Shown piece after piece: positions 1-12,782 of a DNA stretch of 12,782 nucleotides. The notes under the pieces are model-generated. The model saw only the letters and a list, made by a program, of their open reading frames with translations. It made no database searches and had not been told where the DNA came from. Source of the DNA: a bacterium (lineage in GTDB: Bacteria; Zhuqueibacterota; Zhuqueibacteria; Oceanimicrobiales; Oceanimicrobiaceae). How positions within the stretch are numbered: the stretch's first letter is position 1; every line of letters begins with the position of its first letter. The position numbers and the translations under genes are program-made. The stretch spans positions 1-12,782 of the forward strand of contig JBHHXN010000150.1 in the NCBI GenBank assembly GCA_046757025.1, in the 5' to 3' direction.

Positions 1-195
1 TTATTAGAAGATGCTTTAAAATTGCGACCCGTAGAGAGAGCTCATTTAATTGAGGGATTAATGGCAAGTTTAGAGAAACCCGATCCTGAAATAGAAGCGA
101 TATGGGAACAGGAAGCCCTACGAAGATATGAAGCTTATAAACAAAAACGTGCAAAAGCTAAAGATTTGGAAAAGGTATTAAAAAAGTATGAGTAA
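1..195 (+). CDS. Putative addiction-module antitoxin (TIGR02574-like), 5'-truncated by the window edge
   Basis: Frame 1 is open from base 1 to TAA at 193-195 and reads LLEDALKLRPVERAHLIEGLMASLEKPDPEIEAIWEQEALRRYEAYKQKRAKAKDLEKVLKKYE. The 'AL.L...ERA.L...L..SL......I...W..E..RR' pattern is typical of this family. The stop overlaps the toxin ATG at 188. It is absent from the ORF track. Confidence 0.85.
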   Translation, partial: LLEDALKLRPVERAHLIEGLMASLEKPDPEIEAIWEQEALRRYEAYKQKRAKAKDLEKVLKKYE

Positions 196-496
196 AATGC
201 GGTTTAAAATACTTGAGCAAGCTGAGCTAGAGTTAGATGATGCGTATGATTATTATGAATATGAATTGCAAGGATTAGGGCAAAAATTTATTGTTGAATT
301 TAGGAAAGGAATAAAACGTATCCTCAATCATCCTCATGCTTGGAGTCCTATACAAGATAATGTTCGAAAATGCATATTAAAAAAGTTTCCATACAATATT
401 ATGTATGCTATAGAAGATAATTGGCTTATAATTCTCGCTGTGGCACATCAACATAGACGACCTGATTATTGGATTGATAGGCTTAATAATTTATGA
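188..496 (+). CDS. Type II toxin, RelE/ParE superfamily
   Basis: 102 aa with 'A..EL.DA..YYE....GLG..F..E....I..I...P..W......R...L..FPY.I.Y.......ILAVAH.R.P.YW', the signature of ParE-like toxins paired with addiction-module antitoxins. Alternative start ATG at 197. Confidence 0.9.
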   Translation: MSKMRFKILEQAELELDDAYDYYEYELQGLGQKFIVEFRKGIKRILNHPHAWSPIQDNVRKCILKKFPYNIMYAIEDNWLIILAVAHQHRRPDYWIDRLNNL

Positions 497-4465: not shown

Positions 4466-4584
4466 GAAGGCTTGAAATCCCAATTTTCAAAAACAAATTA
4501 CCAACAAATTCCAATATTCAATTTCAAAGTTTTAAACCGCCTTCAGCGCAAGTGACCCTTTAAATTGGAATTTGAAATTTTTTG
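4466..4584. repeat. Degenerate heptamer-unit (AAATTCC-like) inverted repeat element
   Basis: Units aaatccc/aattttc/aaaaac/aaattac/aaattcc/aatattc/aatttc at 4475-4528. CAAATTCCAAT (4505-4515) is the exact reverse complement of ATTGGAATTTG (4564-4574). GAAGGC (4466-4471) and GCCTTC (4539-4544) bracket the left arm. Confidence 0.6.
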
Positions 4585-4601
4585 TGATAGGAGGTGTGGC
4601 C

Positions 4602-5162
4602 ATGAACGTCGCCATAACTATCGTTGTTTTTGCTGCAATTCTCATCGTCTCATTCCTTGTTTTGCGTCCCCTGTTCAAAGCCTACTGGCGCCATAAAGGC
4701 AAAATGATGGTCACGTGCCCTGAAACCGAACAACCCGCGGGAGTGGAAGTGGATGCTAAACATGCTGCATTCACTGCTACATTCGGTGAGAAAAACCTGC
4801 TGTTAAAAGAATGCACACGCTGGCCGGAGCGTCAGAATTGTGGCCAGGAATGCCTGCAACAAGTGGAGGAATCGCCAGAAAATTGTCTTGTGCGGGTCAT
4901 TTTGACCAACTGGTATCAGGGAAAATCTTGCAATTATTGCGGCAAGGTCTTTGAAGAAATTCAATGGCATGACCACAAACCCGCGCTTTTGAGCCCCGAC
5001 AACGAATTTGTTGACTGGGCAAAGATGCCGGTGGAAGCGCTACCTGAATTGCTCTCCACCAGCCAGCCGGTGTGCTGGGATTGCAACCTCGCGGAAACCT
5101 TTCGGAGGGAGCACGCTGATTTGGTCACCGAGCGCCCCTGGAAACGCGGCCGTCTGATTTGA
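4602..5162 (+). CDS. Uncharacterised membrane-anchored Cys-rich protein (probable metal binding)
   Basis: A strong AGGAGGTG RBS precedes ATG 4602, so the TTG at 4572 is rejected. 186 aa with an N-terminal hydrophobic helix followed by a basic patch, and 9 Cys: CPET, CTRWP, CGQEC, ENC, CNYC, CWDC. Confidence 0.85.
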   Translation: MNVAITIVVFAAILIVSFLVLRPLFKAYWRHKGKMMVTCPETEQPAGVEVDAKHAAFTATFGEKNLLLKECTRWPERQNCGQECLQQVEESPENCLVRVILTNWYQGKSCNYCGKVFEEIQWHDHKPALLSPDNEFVDWAKMPVEALPELLSTSQPVCWDCNLAETFRREHADLVTERPWKRGRLI

Positions 5163-5837: not shown

Positions 5838-6305
5838 ATGTCCATAAAATACTGGTTATTCAAATCTGAACCGCATGTGTTTTCTTTTGAGGATTTGAAA
5901 AATAGTCCAGACGCCACAACCCACTGGGATGGCGTACGAAATTACCAGGCCAGAAATTTCATGCGGGATGAGATGAAAAAAGGCGACCAGGTGCTGTTTT
6001 ACCATTCACATTGCGATGAAATGGGAATGGTTGGTGTTGCGGAAGTGACCAGAGACGCCTATCCCGATCACACCTCCTGGGACGCCAGCTCAAAATATTT
6101 CGATGCCAAATCCAGTCCGCAAAACCCACGATGGTTTATGGTGGACATTACCTATAAACAGGCATTTCGAAAGAAGGTCACCCTGTCTGAATTGAAAGCC
6201 ACGCCGGCGTTAAGCGGGATGCGGGTGGTGCAACAGGGCCAGCGGCTTTCCATTCAGCCGGTGGAAAAGGAGCATTTCGATATCGTGTGTAAAATGGGAA
6301 TGTAA
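5838..6305 (+). CDS. EVE-domain protein (THYN1-like, PUA-related modified-base reader)
   Basis: 'YWLFKSEP', 'WDGVRNYQARNFMR', 'GD.VLFYHS', 'AYPD', 'PRW.MVD', 'RLSIQPV'; GAGGA RBS. Confidence 0.93.
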   Translation: MSIKYWLFKSEPHVFSFEDLKNSPDATTHWDGVRNYQARNFMRDEMKKGDQVLFYHSHCDEMGMVGVAEVTRDAYPDHTSWDASSKYFDAKSSPQNPRWFMVDITYKQAFRKKVTLSELKATPALSGMRVVQQGQRLSIQPVEKEHFDIVCKMGM

Positions 6306-6314
6306 ATAAAATTA

Positions 6315-6525
6315 CTAACATTTCTCACTTCAAATACGATTAAAAAAAGTGTACTGTAGCTGACATTCCCCGCCTTGCGGGACAGGCAGGAGGAATCTTT
6401 TTGATTGTCAGTACAGTTGCTAGTTCAATACTCATTTCGTAGAACTAAAAAGATTCTTCCAGAATGACATATAAAGCCTTGTTTATATGACAGATTAATC
6501 AACTTATTGAAGTGAGAAATGTTAG
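6315..6525. mobile_element. 211-bp MITE with 19-bp TIRs and 8-bp target-site duplication
   Basis: CTAACATTTCTCACTTCAA (6315-6333) and TTGAAGTGAGAAATGTTAG (6507-6525) are a perfect inverted repeat. TAAAATTA is directly repeated at 6307-6314 and 6526-6533. There is no internal ORF. Confidence 0.88.
6361..6469. repeat. TGTC-tagged REP-like palindrome inside the MITE, with a 19-bp nested mini-hairpin
   Basis: The left arm TGACATTC+AGGAGGAATCTTTTT matches the reverse complement of 6447-6469 at 20/23 once the insert CCCGCCTTGCGGG-ACAGGC (6369-6387) is removed. Confidence 0.75.
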
Positions 6526-6607
6526 TAAAATTATTTACGGATGAATTTAGAATTAGGAAGATGATGATTGGTAGTAACAAACCGTTCGCGGTTCAAAGAG
6601 TATTTGT

Positions 6608-6659
6608 AGTACTATCTCTCATCTTTTGCGTTTTTTTGCAAAAGATGAGAGATAGTACT
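6608..6659. repeat. Perfect 22-bp-arm palindrome; possible bidirectional terminator between convergent EVE and nth genes
   Basis: AGTACTATCTCTCATCTTTTGC (6608-6629), 8-nt loop GTTTTTTT, GCAAAAGATGAGAGATAGTACT (6638-6659). It lies 7 nt past the nth stop codon. Confidence 0.85.
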
Positions 6660-6666
6660 CTGTGGA

Positions 6667-7302
6667 TTATCCGAACAACTCCTTCCTGCCAATTTTGCTG
6701 CAAAGCGGACAGTTTTCTGCTCGATGGTTGCGCGCTGGGCAATATTCTCTTCCAAAATAAATAATTTGCAAATGCAGCTTGTTCCACAGTTTTTTTGGGA
6801 AAATGCGTTTCAAATCCTTTTCCGTTTGAACCACCGATTTGCCGCTGGACAAACCCCAGCGGTGAGCCAGTCGGTGGATGTGCGTATCCACGGGAAAGGC
6901 GGGGATGCCAAATGCCTGCGCCATGACCACGGAGGCGGTTTTGTGGCCCACGCCCGGCAGCGATTCCAGCGCTTCAAAATCGGCTGGCACACAACCCTGG
7001 TGGTTTTCCAGCAAAATCTGTGAGAGCTTATGAATGGCCTCGGCCTTGCGCGGCGCCAGTCCGCACGGTTTGATTACTTCGAGAATTTCCTGCACGCTCA
7101 ACTCAATCATTTTTTGCGGTGTGTGGGCTCTTTCGAAGAGAACCGGCGTCACGCGATTGACCATGACATCCGTGGTTTGCGCGGAAAGCAGCACCGAAAT
7201 CAGCAATGTGTAAGGGTCACGGTGGTTGAGAGGAATCGGAGGCAACGGAAACAGCTTGTCCAGCGTTTTGACGATGAGTTTGGCTTTTTCTTGTACGGTC
7301 AT
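6667..7302 (-). CDS. nth: Endonuclease III (HhH-GPD DNA glycosylase/AP lyase)
   Basis: 'LLISVLLSAQTTD..VN.VTP.LF', HhH 'LPGVGHKTA' with the catalytic Lys, 'FPVDTHI.R' with the catalytic Asp. The C-terminus has only three Cys (CPARNHRAENCPLC). Confidence 0.93.
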   Translation of the reverse strand: MTVQEKAKLIVKTLDKLFPLPPIPLNHRDPYTLLISVLLSAQTTDVMVNRVTPVLFERAHTPQKMIELSVQEILEVIKPCGLAPRKAEAIHKLSQILLENHQGCVPADFEALESLPGVGHKTASVVMAQAFGIPAFPVDTHIHRLAHRWGLSSGKSVVQTEKDLKRIFPKKLWNKLHLQIIYFGREYCPARNHRAENCPLCSKIGRKELFG

Positions 7303-7402: not shown

Positions 7403-7492
7403 TGCCATTTTGTAAGAATCTTTTTGCAACCGACAGTAACACTGTTTTAGTAAATTTTCTCTGTAAACTAACAAGATGCTTCCAGCATGACA
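7403..7492. repeat. Second, degenerate copy of the TGTC-tagged REP-like element
   Basis: 7466-7492 AACTAACAAGATGCTTCCAGCATGACA matches 6443-6469 AACTAAAAAGATTCTTCCAGAATGACA at 24/27. GAATCTTTTTG is shared in the left arm. Confidence 0.7.
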
Positions 7493-11464: not shown

Positions 11465-11661
11465 TGTCATTCTGAGGGAGCCCGCGACCGAAGAATCTTT
11501 TCCCACAGAGTCTATTTGTCCAGATCACGATCCCTCTGCACTAATTCACAACTTTTGCATTTTAGCAAATTTGGTTGCATGAGATTCTTCGTCGTGGAAT
11601 TTATCCCTTCTTGAGGTTCAGGGCAGGCTCTGAGCCTCAAGAAGGACTCCTCAGAAAGACA
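11465..11661. repeat. Large TGTC-tagged REP-like palindrome with nested hairpin, between convergent genes
   Basis: TGTCATTCTGAGG (11465-11477) pairs with CCTCAGAAAGACA (11649-11661, 1 mismatch). CGAAGAATCT (11489-11498) pairs with AGATTCTTCG (11582-11591). Inner hairpin CCTTCTTGAGGTTCAG (11606-11621) pairs with CTGAGCCTCAAGAAGG (11630-11645). Confidence 0.85.
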
Positions 11662-12646: not shown

Positions 12647-12782
12647 TTAACATTTCTCACTTCGTGACGTGATTCACAAACCAACTGTTAATTAAGAGGT
12701 TACTGATTGTTCTACTTTCACCCTGATCCCTTCGACAAGCTCAGGATAAACTGCGTCGAAGGGTGACTAGTTCTGGCTGTAA
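12647..12782. mobile_element. Probable second MITE of the 6315-6525 family; other end outside the window
   Basis: TAACATTTCTCACTTC (12648-12663) is identical to 16 bp of the TIR at 6316-6331, and is followed by a REP-like palindrome as in the first copy. Confidence 0.6.
12718..12766. repeat. REP-like palindrome with nested module
   Basis: TCACCCT (12718-12724) pairs with AGGGTGA (12760-12766), and CCCTTCGAC (12728-12736) pairs with GTCGAAGGG (12755-12763). The inner module is CCCTTCGACAAGCTCAGG-ATAAACT. Confidence 0.7.

What the first reader, a model, noticed from the sequence alone, without database searches (positions are those of the whole stretch)
6307..6533. Intact non-autonomous element (MITE) with perfect 19-bp TIRs and an exact 8-bp TSD right after the EVE stop codon
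Seen: perfect TIRs beginning CTAACATTTCTCACTT, flanked on both sides by TAAAATTA, with a 211-bp non-coding body. Established: TIR plus TSD is the footprint of DDE transposition. Inference: unmutated ends suggest a recent insertion mobilised in trans. I cannot assign the TIR to a named IS family, so it may mark an undescribed MITE/IS.
Basis: partly seen in the sequence, partly recalled or inferred. Interest (0 to 1): 0.7.

Follow-up and report, generated by a model that had tools for sequence, protein, structure and literature searches.

The report
IS4-type MITE carrying a REP dimer
This is a 211-base non-coding jumping element, one of many in the genome whose ends match those of IS4-family insertion sequences and which are likely moved by that family's transposase, so it is an ordinary, apparently unnamed member of a known kind.

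Summary
Observation confirmed: element 6315-6525 (211 bp), 19-bp perfect arms, TAAAATTA on both sides. Its ends are assignable. The 15-bp core occurs 37 times exactly in the genome (0.008 expected). It bounds 15 complete MITEs in two body types, 10 with an exact target duplication (nine 7 bp, this one 8 bp; control 0 of 420). The same ends bound 1.55-1.61 kb insertion sequences whose DDE/YREK transposase passes NCBIfam NF049925 (IS4 family), as ISBf8 of subgroup ISPepr1 does. The 3' end of such a transposase with its terminal repeat lies at the start of contig C115 of this genome. Ends, duplication length, size and AT-rich target fit the published ISPepr1 definition.

Corrections: the family repeat is 16 bp and the usual duplication is 7 bp. 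'Recent' is not supported: paralogues are 80-89% identical, and no empty allele was seen in four runs of one study. The body is a TGTC-tagged REP-like dimer, also found at about 100 loci outside these ends.

Verdict: new member of a known kind, low interest.

The parts
6307..6314 (.). left copy of the 8-bp target-site duplication TAAAATTA
6315..6330 (+). left terminal inverted repeat, family core CTAACATTTCTCACTT (perfect match to the other end runs to 6333 in this copy)
6361..6397 (+). left half-site of a TGTC-tagged REP-like dimer (tag reads TGAC here), interrupted by a 19-nt hairpin insert
6369..6387 (+). 19-nt hairpin insert, present in 2 of 7 same-body MITE copies; its first 15 nt match 26 genome sites with at most 1 mismatch, nearly all at the same place in the REP half-site
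6452..6469 (-). right (inverted) half-site of the REP-like dimer
6510..6525 (-). right terminal inverted repeat (19-bp arm from 6507)
6526..6533 (.). right copy of the 8-bp target-site duplication
6315..6525 (.). whole MITE (body type A), in the gap between the convergent EVE gene (5838-6305, +) and an HhH-GPD/endonuclease III-like gene (6667-7302, -)
12647..12782 (+). second MITE with the same terminal repeat but body type B, cut off by the contig end

Best explanation
It is a 211-bp MITE with the 16-bp ends of an IS4-family (ISPepr1-type) insertion sequence, and it was likely inserted by that element's DDE transposase acting in trans on an AT-rich target. SHOWN: ends, target duplication, multi-copy family, identical ends on transposase-coding elements, a transposase 3' end plus terminal repeat in the same genome, and a loose palindromic target preference (T-n-A-w-T-n-A). 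INFERRED from IS4-family knowledge (Tn5/Tn10-type chemistry, recalled): the transposase binds both ends, cuts the element out through hairpin intermediates and joins it at staggered cuts 7 bp apart (8 bp here); repair makes the duplication. INFERRED: the body is passenger DNA, a REP-like dimer that also exists free of these ends. UNTESTED: any effect on the two convergent transcripts; the element would fold into a long hairpin if transcribed.
For: 37 exact core copies vs 0.008 expected. 15 complete elements of 184-230 bp, 10 with exact 7-8 bp duplications vs 0 of 420 mismatched flank pairs; relatives 15 of 37 vs 13 of 2664. Elements of 1573 and 1614 bp with these ends enclose 482- and 488-aa ORFs (L080, L043). 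Among 43 metagenome loci found by transposase homology alone, 30 have both ends 1555-1613 bp apart and 40 have at least one end within 2 mismatches. NF049925 scores 299, 313 and 317 bits vs cut-off 250; ISBf8 scores 459 on the same model. D135, D250, E365 and Y358-R361-E365-K372 are invariant in the 6-sequence alignment. G000:C115:1-270 holds 84 codons of transposase C-terminus (56% identical over 68 aa to the L144 transposase) whose stop lies inside the terminal repeat. Contigs covering that part have depth 25-35 vs 9.5-11 for the flank in 3 of 4 runs, a hint that it is a collapsed repeat (the tool warns depth is no copy number). One paralogous site without the element shows a single target copy (C123 vs C273, 82% over 57 nt).
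Against: No empty allele of this locus was seen: no joint skips 6315-6525 in 4 of 4 runs, all one study, three possibly the source, and a flank pattern found 0 metagenome records. No full-length transposase is in the assembly, so present-day activity in this genome is not shown. 5 of 15 own copies and 19 of 37 copies in relatives have no exact duplication. Only 3 of 30 full-length metagenome ISs show one (mixed flanks of collapsed repeats are a likely but untested cause). The C170 empty-site comparison was not clean: its paralogues lack the 7-mer altogether. Position 5 of the end is C where the published ISPepr1 consensus has A.
Confidence: 0.92

Rival explanations
1. One reading: the copy is a very recent insertion from an ongoing burst.
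For: Both ends and the duplication are intact. Most body type B copies, which use the same ends, are 95-99% identical and often break contigs, so the transposase was active recently. Run X4 has contigs that join the flank at C115 to non-IS sequence, which may be an empty allele of the IS (short, not confirmed).
Against: No near-identical donor: the closest paralogue is 89% identical, and a copy in another genus is 86% identical over 115 nt. The element is shared by X1-X3 and by X4, which differs at base 6363 and lacks the 56-bp hairpin.
Confidence: 0.25
2. The segment is kept by selection as a bidirectional terminator or RNA-stability element between two convergent genes; its mobile origin is incidental.
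For: It lies between convergent genes and folds strongly as RNA (z -7.5). REP dimers and MITEs are often placed next to gene 3' ends (PMC3733652, passages).
Against: 0 terminator-like sites in 6150-6800. Much of the fold comes from the terminal repeats; the body alone scores z -2.9. None of 9 EVE homologue loci in the family carries the element.
Confidence: 0.12
3. The 16-bp motif is a protein-binding site (operator) and the pairs are regulatory boxes, not transposon ends.
For: The motif is strongly conserved across 15 of 20 family genomes.
Against: Paired inverted copies carry flanking duplications far above control and bound transposase genes, with the stop codon inside the repeat in 34 of 35 cases.
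Confidence: 0.02

Closest known systems
IS4 family, subgroup ISPepr1 (ISPepr1, ISBf8, IS943, ISLre1, ISDha5; De Palmenaer et al. 2008, PMC2266710, passages incl. Table 1 and supplementary file S7 seen)
   Same: Ends match 7 of 8 defined positions of YT-AA-YTT---A; duplications 7-8 bp; AT-rich targets; parent size 1555-1614 bp; YREK present; same NCBIfam model as ISBf8. The ISBf8-family record begins CTAAAGTTTCCCACCC, 11 of 16 identical to this end.
   Different: C instead of A at position 5. The transposases are only about 23-29% identical to ISBf8, ISTeha4 and the Geobacillus element, so they form a separate, apparently unnamed lineage. The element here has no transposase.
Bacterial type I MITEs (ends shared with a resident IS), e.g. 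P. gingivalis BrickBuilt and MITEPgRS (PMC4596501, passages seen); RUP, NEMIS, ERIC as listed in PMC3733652
   Same: Short, non-coding, IS-matching ends, several body types on one end sequence, repeats carried inside, intergenic location.
   Different: Those P. gingivalis MITEs use IS5 ends. My search for ISPepr1-derived MITEs listed none in the passages read.
CGTC-superfamily REP dimers (Di Nocera et al. 2013, PMC3733652, passages seen)
   Same: TGTC tag followed by an AT-led stem, inverted dimers, many intergenic copies. That paper also reports REP dimers regularly set inside longer palindromic elements.
   Different: The stem here is about 5 bp, shorter than the 8-9 bp described, and the dimer sits inside IS-type ends with target duplications.

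Membership tests
Bacterial MITE | short (70-300 bp), non-coding | tested here: met
   211 bp; no ORF of 50 aa or more wholly inside
Bacterial MITE | terminal inverted repeats of 15-30 bp | tested here: met
   16-bp family core, 19 bp in this copy
Bacterial MITE | target-site duplication | tested here: met
   8 bp here; 10 of 15 copies exact vs 0 of 420 control pairs
Bacterial MITE | multiple dispersed copies | tested here: met
   7 type A and 8 complete type B copies; 12 further ends run off contigs
Bacterial MITE (type I) | ends shared with an autonomous IS | tested here: met
   L080, L043, L144, 30 of 43 metagenome loci with both ends, and G000:C115
Bacterial MITE | mobilisation in trans shown experimentally | not testable with these tools
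   needs a transposition assay
IS4 family, subgroup ISPepr1 (parent IS) | ends YT-AA-YTT---A | tested here: met
   7 of 8 defined positions; position 5 is C
IS4 family, subgroup ISPepr1 (parent IS) | 7-8 bp direct repeats, AT-rich target | tested here: met
   MITEs: 21 of 7 bp, 4 of 8 bp, 3 of 6 bp and 24 with none among 52; target T 88%, A 80%, T 63%, A 66% at positions 1, 3, 5, 7. Full-length ISs from metagenomes: exact repeat in only 3 of 30
IS4 family, subgroup ISPepr1 (parent IS) | size 1500-1600 bp | tested here: met
   1555-1613 bp in 30 loci; 1573 and 1614 bp; the two longest slightly exceed 1600
IS4 family, subgroup ISPepr1 (parent IS) | DDE triad with complete YREK motif | tested here: met
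   D135, D250, E365; Y358 R361 E365 K372 invariant
IS4 family, subgroup ISPepr1 (parent IS) | transposase groups with named members | tested here: inconclusive
   Passes the cut-off of NF049925, as ISBf8 does, but only 25% identical to it; no tree against the ISfinder subgroup set was built
IS701 family | 4-bp duplication, incomplete YREK, IS701 profile | tested here: not met
   7-8 bp duplications, full YREK, IS701 models below their cut-offs
CGTC-superfamily REP (internal cargo) | CGTC/TGTC tag with 8-9 bp stem and 4-5 nt loop | tested here: inconclusive
   Tag and inverted dimers present, 130 half-sites vs 1 in the reversed control; stem shorter than defined
CGTC-superfamily REP (internal cargo) | associated mobilising enzyme gene | tested here: inconclusive
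   A broken GIY-YIG gene at C259 is flanked by these half-sites; the intact Y1 transposase at C146 is not visibly flanked by them

The most novel reading that the evidence does not exclude
A lineage of ISPepr1-type transposases keeps one invariant 16-bp end across 51-66% protein identity and several phyla, partly because its stop codon sits inside the end. That makes it a shared carrier: at least 11 unrelated MITE bodies ride on the same ends, many holding REP-like dimers. REP repeats would then spread within and between genera by hitch-hiking in DDE-moved MITEs rather than through their own tyrosine transposase.
Probability: 0.25. Interest if true: 0.42.

Novelty: new member of a known kind. 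Interest (0 to 1): 0.2.

Why it matters
Modest. It supplies the ends, target preference and MITE families of an apparently unnamed ISPepr1-type lineage that is common in this bacterial family (exact end motif in 15 of 20 genomes). It also helps explain assembly breaks: 12 ends run off contigs unpaired. The nesting of REP-like dimers inside IS-type ends is a testable route for REP dispersal, but REP dimers inside larger palindromes and repeats inside MITEs have precedents (PMC3733652, PMC4596501).

Tried and rejected
Rfam: no match in the window. Terminator scan: 0 sites; promoter-like sites at chance level, 2 vs 1.7. Viral contigs: no relative of the transposase. Empty allele: none in runs X1-X4, and 0 hits for a 24-nt left-flank pattern in JGI metagenomes. 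EVE homologues in 9 of 20 family genomes have no element nearby, but their downstream genes differ, so these are not true empty sites. In-genome empty-site test on 15 copies: 2 gave spanning hits, one usable (C273/C123), one unclear (C170). No RNA holder was listed, so expression was not examined. The second weak own-genome hit (C130) scores best as IS701-like and was set aside. ISNCY/ISDol1 was considered from memory; 2 papers name it, and the one read in passages gave no ends, so it was not tested further. Literature: the end motif as text found 0 papers; MITE + IS4 + ISPepr1 and MITE + REP dimer listed no description of this family. ISfinder itself could not be searched, and the end alignments in PMC2266710 file S7 are pictures that could not be read, so a named identical IS cannot be excluded. 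One review was not held. The 32-bp extended inverted repeat was rejected as the element boundary because all other copies start at YTAAC.

Full report
Observation. The element runs from 6315 to 6525 (211 bp). Its 19 terminal bases are perfect inverted repeats and TAAAATTA flanks it on both sides. It starts nine bases after the stop of an EVE-domain gene (5838-6305) and lies in the gap before a convergent HhH-GPD glycosylase gene (6667-7302, minus strand). The duplication is truly 8 bp in this copy. The repeat finder's 32-bp arm reflects a near-palindromic target and is not the boundary.

Family in the genome. The 15-nt core TAACATTTCTCACTT occurs 37 times exactly; 0.008 are expected. Pairing ends with up to 2 mismatches gives 15 complete elements of 184-230 bp. 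They fall into two body types. Type A has 7 copies, including this one, 77-89% identical to each other. Type B has 8 complete copies, six of them 95-99% identical and two more distant (68-83%). Twelve further ends run off contigs, among them window 12647-12782 (one of the 13 rows listed belongs to a complete element). Nine copies have an exact 7-bp duplication, this one 8 bp, five none; mismatched flank pairs give 0 of 420.

Relatives. The exact core is in 15 of 20 other genomes of the same family and 0 of 20 genomes from other families of the order and class; the reversed control found none. I fetched 60 stretches around listed hits and used 18 loci returned; this is part, not all, of the hits. 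Of these 78 loci, 37 gave distinct paired elements of 66-367 bp: 12 with 7-bp, 3 with 8-bp, 3 with 6-bp and 19 with no exact duplication; control 13 of 2664. The 52 bodies form 11 clusters. Type A also occurs in two other genera. Targets show T, A, T, A at positions 1, 3, 5, 7.

The transposase. Two loci had these ends 1573 and 1614 bp apart around ORFs of 482 and 488 aa. A family genome holds a third, 479 aa (L144). All three pass the cut-off of NCBIfam NF049925, IS4 family (299, 313, 317 bits vs 250), and stay below the IS701 cut-offs. The DDE triad and YREK motif are invariant. Searching metagenomes by protein alone gave 43 loci at 32-70% identity: 30 have both ends 1555-1613 bp apart and 40 have at least one end; the stop codon lies inside the right repeat in 34 of 35; only 3 of 30 show an exact duplication. 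In the own genome, contig C115 begins with 84 codons of such a transposase followed by the right repeat. In three of four runs the contigs over this part are 2-4 times deeper than the flank, and one extends 1200 bases further left, which suggests a collapsed repeat left out of the assembly.

Assignment. Table 1 of PMC2266710 (passages read) defines subgroup ISPepr1 by ends YT-AA-YTT---A, 7-8 bp repeats, 1500-1600 bp, YREK and AT-rich targets. All fit, with one of eight end positions differing. ISBf8 is listed in that subgroup (file S7). A RefSeq ISBf8-family record scores 459 bits on the same model, shares 11 of 16 end bases, and is 25% identical in protein. No tree against ISfinder was possible, so subgroup membership is well supported but not proven, and a named identical IS is not excluded.

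The body. Type A holds an inverted pair of TGTC-tagged half-sites at 6361-6397 and 6452-6469, the left one split by a 19-nt hairpin. Such half-sites number 130 at 103 loci (reversed control 1); only 7 loci lie within these ends, and two lie inside a different MITE-like element with GAG(G/C/A)CTGTGTGAAAA-type ends. They resemble the CGTC REP superfamily (PMC3733652, passages) but have a shorter stem. Type B carries a different REP-like pair. Sixteen of 37 elements in relatives carry the tag (no shuffle control, and kin are not independent).

Age. No run shows an empty allele (4 runs, one study, contigs only). Run X4 carries the element at both junctions while differing at base 6363 and lacking the 56-bp hairpin at 6605-6660, so the insertion predates that split. 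With no donor above 89% identity, 'recent' is not supported for this copy, though type B shows the system was active lately.

Mechanism and verdict. The best reading is cut-and-paste insertion in trans by the cognate IS4-family transposase (chemistry recalled from Tn5/Tn10, not tested). An effect on the flanking transcripts is possible (RNA fold z -7.5) but no terminator motif was found. Searches for the end motif and for ISPepr1 MITEs in the held literature listed no description; the scan's own index had no look-alike by sequence or words. This is a new, ordinary member of a known kind: interest 0.2.

Noticed in passing
window 6605-6660 (arms 6608-6629 and 6638-6659): A 52-nt perfect hairpin flanked by TGT on both sides is missing from one same-species contig of run X4 (joint 6604 to 6661). 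A second copy with the same TTTGT..TGTG flanks is at G000:C256:153-214, and its first 40 nt resemble an end motif found 48 times in the genome. It looks like a target-specific, polymorphic micro-element from a second mobile family.
   Followed up: partly
window 12647-12782: A type B MITE with the same terminal repeat is cut by the contig end; its REP-like core carries a 23-nt hairpin insert seen in 3 of 8 complete type B copies.
   Followed up: yes
G000:C115:1-270 (L142): 3' end of the cognate transposase with its right repeat; short contigs in run X4 join the flank to non-IS sequence, which may be an empty allele. The loose letters were not found in the assembly.
   Followed up: partly
G000:C259:2670-3044: A broken GIY-YIG nuclease gene is bracketed by the same TGTC-tagged half-sites; the genome has 11 GIY-YIG matches, several with stops.
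   Followed up: partly
G000:C6:28063, C76:8277 and similar loci: The same REP-like dimer sits inside ~154-bp elements with other inverted ends (GAG(G/C/A)CTGTGTGAAAA-like); family not identified.
   Followed up: no
window 7475-7491: A lone degenerate half-site of the same REP-like family lies upstream of the nth-like gene.
   Followed up: no
window 1-496: Addiction-module antitoxin (PF09720) and ParE toxin (PF05016) pair at the contig start, low GC.
   Followed up: no
window 4572-5162: 196-aa cysteine-rich ORF with an N-terminal hydrophobic stretch and no Pfam match.
   Followed up: no
window 11606-11645: A 19-bp inverted pair resembling the REP-like repeats of type B.
   Followed up: no
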